Below, piece after piece: positions 5,735-12,870 of a stretch of DNA of 64,000 nucleotides; position 1 is the first letter of the stretch, and every line of letters begins with the position of its first letter. Below the pieces are notes generated by a model that searched no databases, was not told where the DNA came from, and saw only the letters and a program-made list of their open reading frames with translations. Source of the stretch: a virus (lineage: Duplodnaviria; Caudoviricetes); IMG/VR virus record IMGVR_UViG_3300028888_000049, one strand, 5' to 3'. The translations under genes were made by a program, and so were the position numbers.

Positions 5735-6241
5735 TTATTTATATGTATTATGTTTTAAAATTTCAATAATTGTATCATGTGAAACATTAAATTTTCTACC
5801 TAATCCACGCGTACCAAACTGTTTATCTCTTGGAATATAATTTTTTCGTATCCATTCAACTTGCTTATTTGTTAATTTAGAAGAAGGATGATCTTCGCCT
5901 CTATGAATAGTCACTAAATTATGTTTATATGCATGTATAGTATTTTCAGAATAAGTACACCATTCTAAATTAGTAACAATATTATTTTGTTTATTACCAT
6001 CAATGTGATTAATACATGGTAAATTTTTTTGATTTGGTATAAAAGCTTTAGCTACTAATCTTGATATTTTTATACATTTAGCTTTACCTTTTCTGCCAAA
6101 GGGTTTTAAACAAACCATATGATAACCCATACGTTTATTTAAATAACTTTTTATAATTTTACCAGATCTACCTTTTAATCTACCTAAATTACTAATAAAA
6201 TATCCTGGTATTTCAGTTTCTTTCCATTCTTCTTTTAACAT
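5735..6241 (-). mobile_element. NUMOD4-HNH homing endonuclease inserted in tRNA cluster
   Basis: EEWK..IPGY.ISNLGR (NUMOD4) and INHIDGNKQNN...NLEWCT..EN..H (HNH). Confidence 0.9.
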
Positions 6242-7133: not shown

Positions 7134-7319
7134 TTATTTTTTCTTTTTATTTGAAGGAGTAGCTGAAACTTCCTTCTTAGGACCTTTAGTATTACAAGCT
7201 GGAGCTCTGCCAACATTCTTGCTTACTGTATTTACTGCAGGACACTTCTTTAAGAAATTACCCCAGCGTTTTTTAAACTGTTGTTCTTCAAAAGTCTTCT
7301 TTTTCTCTTCATCTGTCAT
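7134..7319 (-). CDS. Small basic hypothetical protein
   Basis: 61 aa ORF directly downstream of tRNA-Glu. Confidence 0.5.
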   Translation of the reverse strand: MTDEEKKKTFEEQQFKKRWGNFLKKCPAVNTVSKNVGRAPACNTKGPKKEVSATPSNKKKK

Positions 7320-7353
7320 CTTTTTATTACTTTCTTTCTACTATTAGCACAAA

Positions 7354-7430
7354 TGGTACGATCGACGGGCTACGATCCCGTGTTTTCGCCGTGAAAGGGC
7401 GATGAACTAGTCCAACTATTCGACGATCGC
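7354..7430 (-). tRNA. tRNA-Glu(TTC)
   Basis: Acceptor GCGATCG/CGATCGT, anticodon arm TCGCC-CTTTCAC-GGCGA, CCA; T-loop ATCGTAG. Confidence 0.9.
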
Positions 7431-7542
7431 ATTTTTATAATATTATATATAAAGTTTTTTATATTTGTAAAGCCGAAAAAGTTCATCACTCTTTCTCTTT
7501 ATAATGTTTTTTTTATATCAATTTATTTAAAAATATAAAAGC

Positions 7543-7617
7543 TGGTGCCTTCGGCGATGAATCGAACACGCATTGACGGAGTACAAAACCGTTTTCCTAC
7601 CATTGAAAGACGAAGGC
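7543..7617 (-). tRNA. tRNA-Thr(TGT)
   Basis: Acceptor GCCTTCG/CGAAGGC, anticodon loop TTTGTAC, TTCGATT T-loop with a bulged T-stem, CCA. Confidence 0.85.
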
Positions 7618-7621
7618 TTAT

Positions 7622-7697
7622 TGGCTGGAGTGGAGGGTTACGATCCCCCGACATCTTGATTAACAGTCAAGTGTTCTACCAACTGAACTACACTCCA
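7622..7697 (-). tRNA. tRNA-Asn(GTT)
   Basis: Acceptor TGGAGTG/CACTCCA, anticodon arm CTTGA-CTGTTAA-TCAAG, CCA; T-loop ATCGTAA. Confidence 0.93.
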
Positions 7698-7704
7698 ACA
7701 ATGA

Positions 7705-8019
7705 TTTAAGTTTTTGACTGAAGGACTCCTGACTACCTCCAAACTCTTACGCAAATAAGCATATTATTCAGTCACATCCACAAAAGTTAGCTATTCTTTT
7801 GTTTATAAGGATGAGAGGATTGAATACCTCCAAATGGATACAGATATCAGCCTGTCACAATACGGTTTGTCCATTTCTTACGTCACTATAGGTTAGCCGA
7901 CCCATGCTATTTCAACCTTATATTTCTTATTTACTATCGCCTACGCAAACCTTTTCAGATTCCACGTAGCTTCCTTATCTGCTATCAACAGATTATTAGG
8001 AACAAGTCAAAAACTTAAA
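7705..8019 (-). ncRNA. Large multi-branched ncRNA, possibly a compact ROOL/GOLLD-like RNA
   Basis: Perfect 15-bp closing helix TTTAAGTTTTTGACT/AGTCAAAAACTTAAA, about seven internal helices, own GTTCTA promoter at 8052-8057, abuts tRNA-Asn. Confidence 0.7.
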
Positions 8020-8139
8020 AACTTTTGCATATTCACTATTTAAGTAATATATAGAACTATTTTTATTTAAAATAAAATAGAAAAATATATTATTTTTTAT
8101 AACTTTTTAGCATCTATTCCAGAAACGACCGGAGTTTTA

Positions 8140-8230
8140 GAAAAAAGAGAGAGATAAGACGGAGGAACTATTTGACAAATCATTTTAAAATCTTATCTCT
8201 CAATTTTATATCACTACCGACGCGATATGA
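8140..8230 (-). ncRNA. Candidate ~90 nt sRNA with anti-SD sequence
   Basis: TTTACA-N17-TATAAA promoter (8235-8264), 11-bp GAGAGATAAGA/TCTTATCTCTC stem plus U-tract, TCCTCC in the loop. Confidence 0.45.
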
Positions 8231-8277
8231 ATATTTTATACAATATATAATTTTATTTGTAAAGCCGTTTTTTTCAC

Positions 8278-8982
8278 TTAATCAGGTAATTGAAAAGCTA
8301 ATATATCTACTACATACTGCAAATTATTAAGATAGTCTTTAAATGTTTCAGGTTTCCAATATGTAAAATTATTTTTCTCTTTGGCTTTGGTAAATATATT
8401 CTTATATTGTTTATATATCTTGCAAAATTCTAATAATTCTTTCTTTGTTCTAATTTTACCTTCAGCAATAGCCTCCTGTATTTCAGTATGTGCAATAAAT
8501 AAACTTTGTTGAGTATATGCTCTAATTTCAGATGGATGATTATAATACGCCCAAGGGTTACTATTAACACTTTTATCATCTGGTTTATCTATACCCTTTT
8601 TTCTATCATCGACATGTACTAATTCATGTAAAACAGTAGATAAGTTTTCACTAATATATTCTTGAAAACAGTCTATTGCATATATTTTATCTTTATTAGA
8701 AGAATAACCATCAACAGGTACATTATCATCTAATGCTGGAAACATTACGGTAGGTAAGTCTTCATCAATCTTTAAAACTGCAGCACTTACATCTGCTTTA
8801 AAACTTTTGTTTGTTAATAAGTAAATAATATCTTTATCTCTAAAGAATACACCTGATAGGTTTTTAAGATTATGAATGTACTCTGGATTTTCTTTTAATA
8901 AATTAAGTTCTGACATTAAATCTTTTATTTGATTTAAGATTGTAAGTCTTTGGTTTGTTAATTCTTCGTTATCTAATTTCAT
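8278..8982 (-). CDS. HExxH zinc-metallopeptidase-like protein
   Basis: VLHELVH ... YYNHPSEIRAY (HExxH plus downstream Glu ligand). Confidence 0.65.
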   Translation of the reverse strand: MKLDNEELTNQRLTILNQIKDLMSELNLLKENPEYIHNLKNLSGVFFRDKDIIYLLTNKSFKADVSAAVLKIDEDLPTVMFPALDDNVPVDGYSSNKDKIYAIDCFQEYISENLSTVLHELVHVDDRKKGIDKPDDKSVNSNPWAYYNHPSEIRAYTQQSLFIAHTEIQEAIAEGKIRTKKELLEFCKIYKQYKNIFTKAKEKNNFTYWKPETFKDYLNNLQYVVDILAFQLPD

Positions 8983-10122: not shown

Positions 10123-10667
10123 GAGTATTCGTTCTCTCTATCATGTATTAAACTTCCTAATTCATACCATAATTCATAATTCCATTTTAATTCCGGAATA
10201 TGATGTATTAAATTATTATAGCGATGTTCTATCATATGTATTGCTCTGTTTAAAATTCTAATTTTAGTTTTATCAAAGCAACGATATTCTATACTTCCAT
10301 CTATATGATGTGGTGTTAACCAATTATTTATCCAAGTATAACCGTTTTCTATACCAAAGATTTTATAATCAAGATTTTTAATTGTTTTCATACTAAAATG
10401 ACTAAGTTGACAAGTATAATTACAATCTCTTTTTAACTGTTGAATAAATTGTTTCCATTCTTCATCATTTTCACAAATATTTTTACGTTCACTAAAAGTT
10501 TCTTTAGTAGTTACATATTCAGCAAACGTATTTAGTTTATTACTAAGTATTCTCAGATCAATTTCTTCATCTAAGTAAGGAAAATAACAAAGTTCTGACT
10601 TAAAGTCATAAAATCTAATGTCACAATTTCGTATATTTTCTAAAAATCTAGTAAAATCAATTTTCAT
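10092..10667 (-). CDS. Degenerate HNH-like nuclease domain protein
   Basis: RDCNYTCQL ... LTPHHID ... LNRAIHMIEH. Confidence 0.45.
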   Translation of the reverse strand: MKIDFTRFLENIRNCDIRFYDFKSELCYFPYLDEEIDLRILSNKLNTFAEYVTTKETFSERKNICENDEEWKQFIQQLKRDCNYTCQLSHFSMKTIKNLDYKIFGIENGYTWINNWLTPHHIDGSIEYRCFDKTKIRILNRAIHMIEHRYNNLIHHIPELKWNYELWYELGSLIHDRENEYSWRKIIQKKR

Positions 10668-12870
10668 CTTTATTTAACTTCGCATAATATAATTCTTTAA
10701 TGTCAATTATTGATAAAGTTTTTAATTTTTCGATATTCATACTTTTCATGAAGTCAACGACTCTTTTAGCTTTATCATTTAATTGATTTTCTGGAATTTG
10801 TTTTTCATTAGTAATTTTGTCTTTAAGACTACGCATCCATTTCCAAAAACGATAATGTTGAGTTTTATATTTAACCATAAAACCTTTAGTATCTTCAAAT
10901 ACCCAACCTTCATATAGAATTAAACTACCCTGAGTATCAGCTTCTACATTTTTATAAAATTCTTTAAATGAATTAAAGTCTTTAATTACATATGATTTTT
11001 TCTTAACTTTTAAATCATATATATCTGCAAAATGAAGTAATTCATCATAAGGCATACGTTTACCTTCAAAAGTATTTTCTACAATATCTAATAAATATAA
11101 ACCATTTTCTTTATAACGTATAATATGTGGATCTTTATCTTGATTAATAACCTCAAAGATTAAAGTACAATTATTATGCTCTAAAAAATTACTCAATAAG
11201 AATTTTGTTTTATTTGGTAATAAATCCCATTGTTCTCTTAAATAACCTGCAAAAGGTCCTTCATTTGTAGATTTTGAAGCAATAAATAATTCATGATTAC
11301 GTTTATCATAAGAAACTAAACCCAAAAATCCATTTTCTTTTTTATAAGCAGTAACAGGAAAGCTAAGAGTATTTTCAAGATTATTTAGTTGAGTTTCAGG
11401 TCTTTCATTAATTGCAAAAAACTTATTATAAGATCTTGCTACAATCTTATCTGTTTGAGTATCGATAAATAAACCTCTAGCCGTTATAGTCAGATCATTC
11501 CATTTAGAATCTAGAAAAGCATCTCTTGTAAAGTTATAGCTAACGATTCCATTTCGTAATACTTTTTTATTAACAAGTTTAGAAGCATTAAGTTGTTGAA
11601 TAAACTCATTATCTGTTGTATAAGGTGATCGTGTTGTAGCTAATACCGGTCTTTCTTTATGAGTATTATTCTTAATGAGATGAATTATAGGTTCTTCTGT
11701 ATCTTTATTTATTTGAAGAATGCGTAAATTACCACCCCATTCAATTTCATCATTAACATTATATATATTATTTGCAACTTTAGTAGGAAGCATTTGAATA
11801 TTTCTATGACCATGTATTAAAACTACATCATCTGGATAAGATTCTTTCCAAGTATTATATATTTTTACAGTATCTTCATAATTACCAACGCCTTTAATTA
11901 ATTCAGAAGTTTTAATCAAACCGTCTGGTAATTTTGGCATACCACCATGTGAAACAAAATAAGTCTTACCATTATAAATGAAATAAGCCATTTGTGAAAG
12001 TCTATTAACTATATTTTGAATAATGCGCTTATCTAAAGTTTTTAATTGAGGTAATGTATTGTCATTAAATTCTTGTGAATCTCCTTTATCAGTCTCAAGA
12101 TATTTAATGAGATTACGATCATGATTGCCAGTTAACAATAATACATTATTATTTTCTTTAGATTTTTCGAGTAAATCATTTAAAAATGTTAATGTTTCAG
12201 CATTTTGTAGACCTCTATCAATATAATCACCTACAAAAATATAAAATGTATCATTACTAAATGTATGTTTATCAAACCATTCTTGTAAAGGTTCAACACA
12301 TCCATGAATATCACCAAATATTACAATCTCATTCCATTTATTAAAGTCATAACATACGTCATATAAAATCTCATGTACATCATTTGGTTTAATAATTTTA
12401 AAACGAGAAGAAGGAGCTTCACAATTACAATAAGATTCATACATTCTATCAATTACAGAATCTGGTACTGTTTTTAACCATTCACGCTTATGATTTCTAT
12501 CAATAAATACTTGTTTATCAATGATATTATTATCTTTATCACGCATAAAATCAACAATATATGCTCTGTATTTATACTTCTCGGCTAATTCTTTATACGG
12601 CTTAAGTGATTTATTATTACAATGAGTAGCATCAACAAAAACTGTTTCACCAGCTTTCATTTTAGTTTCTAGTAATTCAAAAAGAAACTTCCATACTTGT
12701 TTATCCATAGAAGAAGATATTGTTTTATATCCTTCTACATTATATTCTGGACATTGAAACAAAATACGCAAATCATCTGAACTTAATGTATAATGCTTAT
12801 ATCCATTTTCTTCAATCCAAGTACTTTTACCACAAGCAGGTACACCACGTAAAATAAATAAATTTCTCAT
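10657..12870 (-). CDS. Polynucleotide kinase / metallophosphatase / T4 Rnl1-like RNA ligase fusion (RNA repair)
   Basis: N-terminal P-loop GVPACGKS, central GDIHG/GDYIDRG/GNHD, C-terminal ARGLF..KFF, KENG, EGWV and KYK ligase motifs. Confidence 0.9.
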   Translation of the reverse strand: MRNLFILRGVPACGKSTWIEENGYKHYTLSSDDLRILFQCPEYNVEGYKTISSSMDKQVWKFLFELLETKMKAGETVFVDATHCNNKSLKPYKELAEKYKYRAYIVDFMRDKDNNIIDKQVFIDRNHKREWLKTVPDSVIDRMYESYCNCEAPSSRFKIIKPNDVHEILYDVCYDFNKWNEIVIFGDIHGCVEPLQEWFDKHTFSNDTFYIFVGDYIDRGLQNAETLTFLNDLLEKSKENNNVLLLTGNHDRNLIKYLETDKGDSQEFNDNTLPQLKTLDKRIIQNIVNRLSQMAYFIYNGKTYFVSHGGMPKLPDGLIKTSELIKGVGNYEDTVKIYNTWKESYPDDVVLIHGHRNIQMLPTKVANNIYNVNDEIEWGGNLRILQINKDTEEPIIHLIKNNTHKERPVLATTRSPYTTDNEFIQQLNASKLVNKKVLRNGIVSYNFTRDAFLDSKWNDLTITARGLFIDTQTDKIVARSYNKFFAINERPETQLNNLENTLSFPVTAYKKENGFLGLVSYDKRNHELFIASKSTNEGPFAGYLREQWDLLPNKTKFLLSNFLEHNNCTLIFEVINQDKDPHIIRYKENGLYLLDIVENTFEGKRMPYDELLHFADIYDLKVKKKSYVIKDFNSFKEFYKNVEADTQGSLILYEGWVFEDTKGFMVKYKTQHYRFWKWMRSLKDKITNEKQIPENQLNDKAKRVVDFMKSMNIEKLKTLSIIDIKELYYAKLNKDEN

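What the first reader, a model, noticed from the sequence alone, without database searches (positions are those of the whole stretch)
7705..8019. ~315 nt ornate ncRNA with a 15-bp closing helix, co-transcribed with tRNA-Asn/Thr
A perfect terminal helix encloses TTCCT/AGGAA with ATCTGT/GCAGAT, CTACGT/GCGTAG capped by a GAAA tetraloop stem, AGGTT/AACCT, AAATGGA/TCCATTT, GAGG-TATTCAAT-CCTC and CATCC/GGATG with ACAAAAG/CTTTTGT. The loop TATTCA is exactly complementary to a downstream TGAATA, a likely pseudoknot. It has its own GTTCTA promoter and ends 7 nt before tRNA-Asn. ROOL and GOLLD RNAs are known to lie beside phage tRNAs. From memory the AGGT..CAATCCT and GTGACTGAAT segments look ROOL-like, but this RNA is much shorter, so it may be a minimal variant or a new class.
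Basis: partly seen in the sequence, partly recalled or inferred. Interest (0 to 1): 0.78.

Follow-up and report, generated by a model that had tools for sequence, protein, structure and literature searches.

The report
manA-like folded RNA in phage tRNA array
The flagged stretch is a real gene for a roughly 315-base folded RNA that sits among the tRNA genes of giant gut phages; it is a larger, uncatalogued cousin of the cage-forming "manA" phage RNA, not of ROOL or GOLLD, and probably joins with copies of itself.

Summary
Confirmed: window 8019-7705 (minus strand) encodes a ~315-nt structured RNA that ends 7 nt before tRNA-Asn.

- **Family:** homologues occur in all 13 Lak megaphage records that matched, in 40 IMG/VR contigs, in at least 119 metagenome contigs and in 7 Bacteroidota-type MAG contigs. 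There is one copy in each of five phage records checked.
- **Structure:** on 73 distinct sequences, 96% of cells pair (38-49% when the partners are slid), and 40 of 47 pairs show compensatory changes. The closing helix covaries completely.
- **New features found here:** a long-range helix and a 4-bp pseudoknot.
- **Known families:** ROOL and GOLLD give no Rfam hit even at E≤10. The only family that touches the element is manA (RF01745), always below threshold (window 11.7 bits, relatives 22-31, cut-off 55.2). It shares the closing helix and the 5' and 3' modules but not the core.
- **Self-association:** two hairpin loops keep changing yet stay self-complementary, which suggests homo-oligomers. 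manA RNAs form RNA-only cages (2026 preprint).
- **Context:** 562 of 570 neighbouring tRNAs are co-oriented with the RNA.
- **Function:** unknown.

This scan had already found the same family on other DNA (e1-1941074, e1-1941116). I found no description of it in the searchable literature.

The parts
7705..8019 (-). whole structured RNA (~315 nt), closed by helix P1
   Evidence: Covariance model R1 scores it 258 bits, the only copy in the window. Blastn finds it in Lak phages.
8005..8019 (-). P1, 5' strand (15 nt)
   Evidence: Pairs perfectly with 7719-7705, -17 kcal/mol. In relatives the helix sits at the same junction with unrelated sequences; the own partner is the best of 23 in 13 cases.
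7705..7719 (-). P1, 3' strand
7971..8002 (-). P2 domain: outer helix 8002-7998/7975-7971 around AAUAA, hairpin P2a 7993-7988/7982-7977, then UAAGG. This is the module shared with manA.
   Evidence: Both helices covary: 96.7% and 99.4% of cells paired. The manA model aligns to this module in relatives.
7983..7986 (-). pseudoknot, 5' strand (GAUA, in the P2a loop)
   Evidence: Pairs with 7846-7843 (UAUC). The 3-bp core is paired in 96.3% of cells, all three pairs compensatory, with about 10 triplet variants. The alignment was not fitted to this pairing.
7843..7846 (-). pseudoknot, 3' strand (UAUC, inside the conserved CUGAU..CUGUA segment)
7941..7969 (-). P3: long hairpin capped by a GAAA tetraloop (7956-7953)
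   Evidence: GAAA is present in 28 of 30 relatives, and the stem covaries.
7926..7934 (-). P4 long-range helix, 5' strand
   Evidence: Pairs with 7759-7751 (9 bp). An equivalent helix with a different sequence is present in 21 of 24 distinct relatives. All 7 pairs show changes on both sides.
7751..7759 (-). P4 long-range helix, 3' strand
7888..7905 (-). P5 hairpin with loop A (7899-7894, CGGCUA)
   Evidence: The stem covaries. In the family loop A is usually a palindrome (UGGCCA, UGCGCA, UGUACA). The window's copy is only weakly self-complementary, through G-U pairs.
7874..7887 (-). conserved single strand AGUGACGUAAGAAA
   Evidence: Invariant in the window and the Lak copies, and conserved with few changes in the closer subgroup.
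7832..7876 (-). P6 helix (7876-7870/7838-7832) enclosing the segment that holds the pseudoknot's 3' strand
   Evidence: 95.6% of cells paired, 5 of 6 pairs compensatory.
7814..7831 (-). P7 hairpin with loop UAUUCAAU
   Evidence: 100% of cells paired, 4 of 5 pairs compensatory. Loop positions 3-4 vary freely.
7775..7813 (-). P8 (7813-7809/7779-7775) and P9 (7802-7796/7786-7780) with loop B; palindrome UAGCUA at 7793-7788
   Evidence: 98% of cells paired in each. Loop B is a perfect 6-nt palindrome that changes between clades (UAGCUA, UAAUUA, UCAUGA, UGAUCA).
7763..7775 (-). conserved strand GUGACUGAAUAAU, a second copy of the manA-type motif
   Evidence: Invariant in the window and Lak copies. 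The manA model hits the Lak-A1 element twice, side by side.
7720..7740 (-). P10 hairpin with loop UAGUCAGGAGU. This is the second module shared with manA.
   Evidence: 100% of cells paired. It aligns to the last hairpin of the manA model.
7622..7697 (-). tRNA-Asn(gtt), 7 nt downstream of P1
   Evidence: ARAGORN and Rfam, 65 bits.
7546..7617 (-). tRNA-Thr(tgt)
   Evidence: Rfam tRNA, 43.6 bits; missed by ARAGORN.

Best explanation
This is a gene for a stable, free-standing non-coding RNA of an uncatalogued phage family.

- **Fold (shown):** a closing helix P1 encloses a manA-type 5' module (P2), a GAAA-capped hairpin, a long-range helix P4 around a ~165-nt central domain, and a manA-type 3' hairpin. 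A 4-bp pseudoknot ties the P2a loop to the central domain.
- **Production (inferred):** the RNA is made as part of the tRNA-array transcript and cut out by the tRNA-processing enzymes. RNase P cutting at the 5' end of tRNA-Asn would set its 3' end. P1 then seals both ends.
- **Self-association (inferred from sequence variation, not shown):** copies bind one another through two self-complementary hairpin loops, each making a two-fold kissing contact. That would give a closed or chain-like RNA-only multimer, as its distant relative manA and the other tRNA-island RNAs ROOL and GOLLD do.
- **Purpose (unknown):** a scaffold or container acting on phage tRNAs or on translation is the most natural guess.
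For: Real, conserved RNA:
- 13 Lak records match.
- The element scores 258 bits with model R1.
- 98 further matches all have E<1e-12.

Structure:
- 96.2% of cells pair against 38-49% when slid, and 40 of 47 pairs are compensatory.
- P1, P4 and the pseudoknot are supported by tests not fitted to them.
- Strand: an invariant U-G pair and the GAAA loop fit only the minus strand.

manA likeness:
- manA is the only Rfam family that hits the element.
- It spans the full model at 22-31 bits in 13 relatives, with E as low as 2.5e-4.

Self-association:
- 6-nt or longer palindromes occur in 45-48% of the distinct loops A and B, against 9-13% in shuffles and 0% in the other short hairpin loops.
- The palindromes change by paired substitutions.
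- manA RNAs form 8-, 10- and 60-mers (bioRxiv 10.64898/2026.07.01.735769).

tRNA context and partners:
- 67 of 96 distinct members have a tRNA within 1 kb, and 562 of 570 tRNAs are co-oriented.
- No protein family recurs next to the RNA; the commonest is in 15 of 96 loci.
Against: - There are no transcript data. Expression, processing and RNA ends are all inferred.
- The link to manA is one-way and below threshold. The window's own copy scores 11.7 bits (E 3.5), and model R1 does not find the canonical manA of phage P-SSM2.
- manA's central stems are not matched.
- manA assemblies use contacts between unlike loops, not palindromes.
- The window's loop A is only weakly self-complementary.
- About half of the distinct loops in the family have palindromes shorter than 6 nt.
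Confidence: 0.6

Rival explanations
1. It is a structured RNA that works as a monomer by binding a protein, as a sponge, decoy or scaffold. Candidates are a host tRNA-targeting nuclease, a tRNA-processing or modifying enzyme, or a ribosomal factor. The palindromic loops would then be protein or intramolecular contacts.
For: - It sits in tRNA arrays.
- A kinase-phosphatase-RNA ligase repair gene lies 2.6 kb upstream in the window.
- Ro60 genes lie near the RNA in 5 loci.
- Long invariant single strands, such as 7887-7874, look like recognition surfaces.
Against: - No protein gene is consistently linked; the commonest is in 15 of 96 loci, and it is a homing endonuclease.
- Loops that change sequence while staying palindromic are what RNA-RNA two-fold contacts predict, not protein sites.
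Confidence: 0.2
2. It is a cis-acting leader or riboswitch that controls the downstream tRNAs or genes, as was first proposed for manA.
For: manA was classed as a likely riboswitch in 5' UTRs (PMC2864571). In the window the element heads the Asn/Thr tRNA pair.
Against: - In many relatives it is wedged between two tRNAs with only a few nucleotides either side.
- No terminator or other expression platform follows it.
- The downstream gene varies: Met, Asn, Ser, Ala, Gly and Thr tRNAs.
- The closing helix seals the fold off from its flanks.
Confidence: 0.07
3. It is a minimal member of the ROOL or GOLLD families.
For: It shares their niche, phage tRNA islands (PMC12286853).
Against: No ROOL or GOLLD match at E≤10 on the element, nor at E≤1 or ≤0.1 on 27 relatives. 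It is also about half or less of their length.
Confidence: 0.02
4. It is a mobile element (a MITE with terminal inverted repeats), an intron or a self-cleaving ribozyme.
For: It has a 15-bp perfect terminal inverted repeat. Homing endonuclease genes lie nearby.
Against: - One copy per window and one in each phage record searched.
- The arms are not repeated elsewhere.
- The terminal repeat changes sequence completely between relatives while keeping its pairing, which is selection on RNA, not on transposase sites.
- No intron or ribozyme family matches.
Confidence: 0.03

Closest known systems
manA RNA motif (Rfam RF01745; Weinberg et al. 2010, PMC2864571; cryo-EM preprint 10.64898/2026.07.01.735769)
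   Same: - It is a phage RNA with a closing helix.
- Directly inside the helix lies a 5' module: a GUGACUGAAUAA-type strand, a hairpin, then UAAGG.
- It has a GAAA-capped hairpin.
- A last hairpin with a GGUA..CAG.A.UCC loop sits just before the 3' strand of the closing helix.
- manA is the only Rfam model that hits the family.
- manA RNAs self-assemble without protein.
   Different: - It is about 315 nt against about 190.
- manA's central stems are replaced by a ~165-nt domain with its own long-range helix and pseudoknot, a second GUGAC-type strand and a second GGUA-type hairpin.
- All scores are below the cut-off, and the reverse search finds nothing.
- It lies inside tRNA arrays, not in 5' UTRs of metabolic genes.
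- Its loops are palindromic, whereas manA uses contacts between unlike loops.
ROOL and GOLLD RNAs (Kretsch et al. 2025, PMC12286853)
   Same: They are encoded by phages and prophages, often next to tRNA islands. They are ornate, have no known protein partner and form homo-oligomeric RNA cages.
   Different: There is no detectable sequence or structure similarity. ROOL and GOLLD are much longer (GOLLD often over 800 nt).
Dimerisation-initiation-type kissing loops (for example the 6-nt palindromic loop of the HIV-1 DIS; from my own knowledge)
   Same: A 6-nt self-complementary sequence shown in a hairpin loop, varying between lineages while staying palindromic.
   Different: Here there are two such loops per molecule in a phage RNA. 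No dimer has been shown.

Membership tests
manA RNA (RF01745) | Score at or above Rfam's gathering cut-off (55.2 bits) | tested here: not met
   The window scores 11.7 bits, E 3.5. Relatives score 22.6-31.2 bits. The canonical P-SSM2 manA scores 181.6 bits.
manA RNA (RF01745) | Closing helix with, just inside it, a GUGACUGAAUAA-type strand, a hairpin and UAAGG | tested here: met
   Present across the family and aligned to the model. The window's copy of the strand is degenerate (UUCCUAAUAA) but keeps AAUAA, the hairpin and UAAGG.
manA RNA (RF01745) | Terminal hairpin with a GGUA..CAG.A.UCC loop next to the 3' strand of the closing helix | tested here: met
   Window 7740-7720. It is nearly invariant in the family and aligns to model positions ~150-175.
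manA RNA (RF01745) | manA's central multi-stem region (the model's P3 junction and P4 stem) | tested here: not met
   These stems are deleted or mispaired in the model alignment, which carries a 182-nt insertion. The family has its own P4-P9 and pseudoknot instead.
manA RNA (RF01745) | Position in the 5' UTR of phage metabolic genes | tested here: not met
   The P-SSM2 manA lies between regA and purL. This family lies inside tRNA arrays.
manA RNA (RF01745) | RNA-only assembly into pentamer-based 8-, 10- or 60-mers | not testable with these tools
   Only indirect evidence: two loops that stay self-complementary while varying.
ROOL (Rfam) | Match to the ROOL covariance model | tested here: not met
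   No match at E≤10 on 7300-8400. None at E≤1 or ≤0.1 on 27 relatives.
GOLLD (Rfam) | Match to the GOLLD covariance model | tested here: not met
   The same searches.
MITE or other dispersed repeat | Several dispersed copies with fixed terminal repeats | tested here: not met
   One copy in the window and one in each of five phage records. The arms are not repeated, and the terminal helix sequence differs in every lineage.

The most novel reading that the evidence does not exclude
This would be a fourth class of phage tRNA-island RNA that builds protein-free assemblies. It would use a design not yet seen in nature: two different self-complementary kissing loops per ~315-nt protomer. Two non-equivalent two-fold contacts would close into a dihedral ring or cage, or grow into a chain. 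That assembly might hold or organise the phage's own tRNAs during infection by megaphages of gut Bacteroidota.
Probability: 0.35. Interest if true: 0.85.

Novelty: new variant of a known kind. Interest (0 to 1): 0.68.

Why it matters
- **Unannotated gene in Lak megaphages.** The Lak megaphages are among the largest known phages of the human and animal gut, and their records carry no annotation here. This adds a conserved, clearly functional RNA gene to them and to many other large phages of gut, rumen, freshwater and marine samples.
- **Extends the cage-forming manA RNA to a new setting.** The family links manA to the tRNA islands where ROOL and GOLLD live, so self-assembling RNAs may be a regular part of phage tRNA islands.
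- **Ready for experiments.** The covariation gives a testable secondary structure with a pseudoknot, plus two specific loops to mutate. That makes the RNA a ready target for SEC, mass photometry and cryo-EM.

Tried and rejected
- **ROOL/GOLLD link:** rejected; no Rfam hit.
- **Reverse test of the manA link:** model R1 finds nothing significant on the canonical P-SSM2 manA, with filters on or off. The link therefore rests on one-way, sub-threshold hits and shared modules.
rejected on covariation.
- **Own-promoter claim:** neither supported nor excluded.
- **Fixed-register count of P1:** only 70% paired, because the model's ends shift by 1-2 nt. I replaced it with an own-versus-foreign partner energy test.
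- **All-against-all column covariation scan:** mostly noise from the two deep subgroups. Only the pseudoknot and P4 stood out.
- **Search for a linked protein gene:** nothing recurrent.
- **Alternative genetic code:** not needed in this window.
- **The large repair gene as a marker of kinship with Lak:** its best matches are ~38% identical Staphylococcus and Bacillus phage genes, so it gives no evidence on kinship with Lak.
- **Technical failures:** the first viral contigs pattern scan gave no answer and was repeated.

Full report
**Observation**

The feature is on the minus strand, read from 8019 down to 7705.
- The 15-bp closing helix is perfect (8019-8005 with 7719-7705).
- Seven nucleotides further on begins tRNA-Asn(gtt) (7697-7622), then tRNA-Thr(tgt) (7617-7546) and tRNA-Glu. 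All lie on the same strand.
- The strand folds to -80.9 kcal/mol, z = -2.75 against dinucleotide shuffles.
- The helix arms are not repeated elsewhere in the window beyond chance.
- No ORF of 40 aa or more lies within the element. The one nominal overlap (7545-7709, plus strand) runs over the tRNA genes and touches only its last 5 nt.

**Homologues**

- Sensitive blastn against phage records finds the element in 13 Prevotella Lak megaphage genomes at 68-69% identity, once per genome. There it lies between a tRNA-Thr or tRNA-His and a tRNA-Met.
- A scan of IMG/VR for a conserved 15-mer brought in many more, far beyond Lak.
The 7 genome contigs are all MAGs labelled Bacteroidales, Muribaculaceae, Bacteroidetes or uncultured.
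- A covariance model built from 21 sequences (R1) scores the window's copy at 258 bits and finds no second copy in the window.
- R1 finds exactly one copy in each of five phage records, including two complete ~540-kb Lak genomes.
- The window's copy is a divergent member. Its nearest relatives in hand are 72% identical.

**Structure**

- RNAalifold on 21 sequences gave 47 pairs, 39 of them with compensatory changes.
- On 98 further matches (73 distinct), 96.2% of cells form standard pairs, against 38-49% when the 3' partners are slid by 1-3 columns. Forty of 47 pairs change on both sides, and the covariation score is 0.73 against 0.08-0.15. That alignment was fitted to the model, so it leans towards the model's structure. 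The three features below were not in the model.
  1. **P1.** A helix of 9-16 bp sits at the same junction in nearly every lineage, with unrelated sequence. A 5' strand prefers its own 3' strand to those of 22 other lineages in 13 of 23 cases (mean -9.2 against -3.7 kcal/mol).
  2. **P4, a long-range helix.** Window 7934-7926 pairs with 7759-7751. It encloses the central ~165 nt and is present in 21 of 24 distinct variants. All seven pairs change on both sides.
  3. **A pseudoknot.** The loop of hairpin P2a (7986-7983) pairs with 7846-7843. The 3-bp core is paired in 96.3% of cells and all three pairs are compensatory, through about ten different triplet pairs.
- An invariant U-G pair and the GAAA tetraloop fix the strand as the minus strand, the same as the tRNAs.
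Its two central positions pair in 3% and 44% of relatives.

**What it is related to**

- Rfam 15 gives no ROOL or GOLLD match, even at E≤10.
- The one family that touches the element is manA (RF01745), always over the full model and always below the 55.2-bit cut-off. The window scores 11.7 bits (E 3.5). Four relatives score 23.5-30 bits and nine more 22.6-31.2 bits. A small search gives E 4.8e-6, and a per-genome search gives 1.7e-8.
- The model alignment shows what is shared. Shared features are the closing helix, the 5' module (a GUGACUGAAUAA-type strand, a hairpin, UAAGG), a GAAA hairpin, and the last hairpin with a GGUA..CAG.A.UCC loop.
- manA's central stems are not matched; a 182-nt insertion takes their place.
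- In Lak-A1 the manA model hits two adjacent halves of the element. This fits the second GUGAC-type strand and the second GGUA-type hairpin that I see in the central domain.
- The reverse test fails. R1 does not find the canonical manA of cyanophage P-SSM2, which scores 181.6 bits with Rfam.
- I therefore call it manA-like, not a manA member.

**Known biology of the relatives**

- manA was described as a riboswitch candidate in the 5' UTRs of cyanophage and marine genes (PMC2864571). In P-SSM2 it lies between regA and purL.
- A July 2026 preprint reports by cryo-EM that manA RNAs under 200 nt form RNA-only octamers, decamers and a 60-subunit cage. These are built from pentamers through kissing loops and a GNRA-receptor contact (10.64898/2026.07.01.735769).
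- ROOL and GOLLD, encoded near phage tRNA islands, also form cages (PMC12286853).

**Self-association**

- Loop A (the P5 hairpin) reads UGGCCA, UGCGCA, UGUACA, or shorter GGCC or GUAC cores.
- Loop B (the P9 hairpin) reads UAGCUA, UAAUUA, UCAUGA or UGAUCA.
- The differences between these variants are paired substitutions that keep the palindrome.
- Perfect palindromes of 6 nt or more occur in 45% and 48% of the distinct loops. The figures are 9-13% in composition-preserving shuffles and 0% in the other short hairpin loops.
- In the window, loop B is a perfect UAGCUA (7793-7788). Loop A (CGGCUA, 7899-7894) can self-pair only weakly, through G-U pairs.
- This pattern is what two-fold RNA-RNA kissing contacts predict. 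It is inference, not demonstration.

**Context**

- Among 96 distinct family members, 67 have a tRNA within 1 kb and 22-23 have one within 30 nt on a given side.
- Of 570 tRNAs in those loci, 562 are on the RNA's strand.
- In some contigs a phage tmRNA directly precedes the RNA.
- No protein family recurs beside it. The commonest neighbours are homing endonucleases (15 of 96 loci), an AAA ATPase (8) and Ro60 (5).
- In the window, the same strand carries thymidylate synthase, a 737-aa kinase-phosphatase-RNA ligase fusion of the tRNA-repair type, and a dNMP kinase upstream. An HNH endonuclease gene lies inside the tRNA array.
- No terminator separates the RNA from tRNA-Asn, and no convincing promoter lies directly upstream.

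**Mechanism proposed**

- Shown: the fold, its conservation, the strand, the single copy, and the tRNA-array setting.
- Inferred: the RNA is transcribed with the tRNAs and released by tRNA processing. P1 protects both ends, and the pseudoknot and P4 lock a compact core. Loops A and B then join protomers into a multimer.
- The purpose is open. A scaffold or container tied to tRNAs or translation is the leading guess, and a protein sponge is the main rival.

**Novelty**

- No Rfam family covers it, and five full-text searches found no description of it.
- The same family was already reported by two follow-up agents of this scan on other genomes (e1-1941074, e1-1941116), with the same reading.
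- The long-range helix and the pseudoknot are not mentioned in the summaries of those notes that I could see.

Noticed in passing
window 10657-12870 (-): A 737-aa fusion of a polynucleotide-kinase-like AAA domain, a metallophosphatase and a T4 Rnl1-type RNA ligase (phrog_8238, E 8e-201). This is a one-protein tRNA-repair kit, 2.6 kb upstream of the RNA on the same strand. Its best phage matches are only ~38% identical (Staphylococcus and Bacillus phages).
   Followed up: partly
window ~8268-8135 (-) and ~7477-7442 (-): The same promoter-like motif (CGGCTTTACAAATA, then a TATAAA/TATAAT box 17-18 nt on) occurs twice. The other lies before tRNA-Glu. It may be this phage's own promoter type.
   Followed up: partly
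window 7546-7617 (-): tRNA-Thr(tgt) is found by Rfam (43.6 bits) but missed by ARAGORN, so the tRNA array holds more genes than ARAGORN lists.
   Followed up: yes
window 5735-6241 (-): An HNH/NUMOD4 homing-endonuclease gene sits inside the tRNA array. Similar HNH and GIY-YIG genes are the commonest neighbours of the RNA in other phages.
   Followed up: partly
L330 1334-1764, L272 1972-2379, L300 362-757: In several metagenome contigs a phage-encoded tmRNA (68.9-80.5 bits) lies directly upstream of the manA-like RNA.
   Followed up: no
L290 1-104 and 199-522 (-): Two copies of the RNA in tandem on one contig. The second is cut off by the contig end.
   Followed up: no
L259 1745-3280 (-); L024 7966-8080: A Ro60 (TROVE) protein gene lies near the RNA in 5 loci. 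A sub-threshold Y-RNA-like (YrlA) match of 35 bits lies in the tRNA array of L024.
   Followed up: no
L134 (tRNA array): ARAGORN calls a tRNA with anticodon CUA there, a possible amber suppressor. This hints at stop-codon recoding in that phage. The window itself reads well with the standard code.
   Followed up: no
L263 904-965 (-): A freshwater-1 RNA (79.9 bits, above its cut-off) lies between a tRNA and the manA-like RNA.
   Followed up: no
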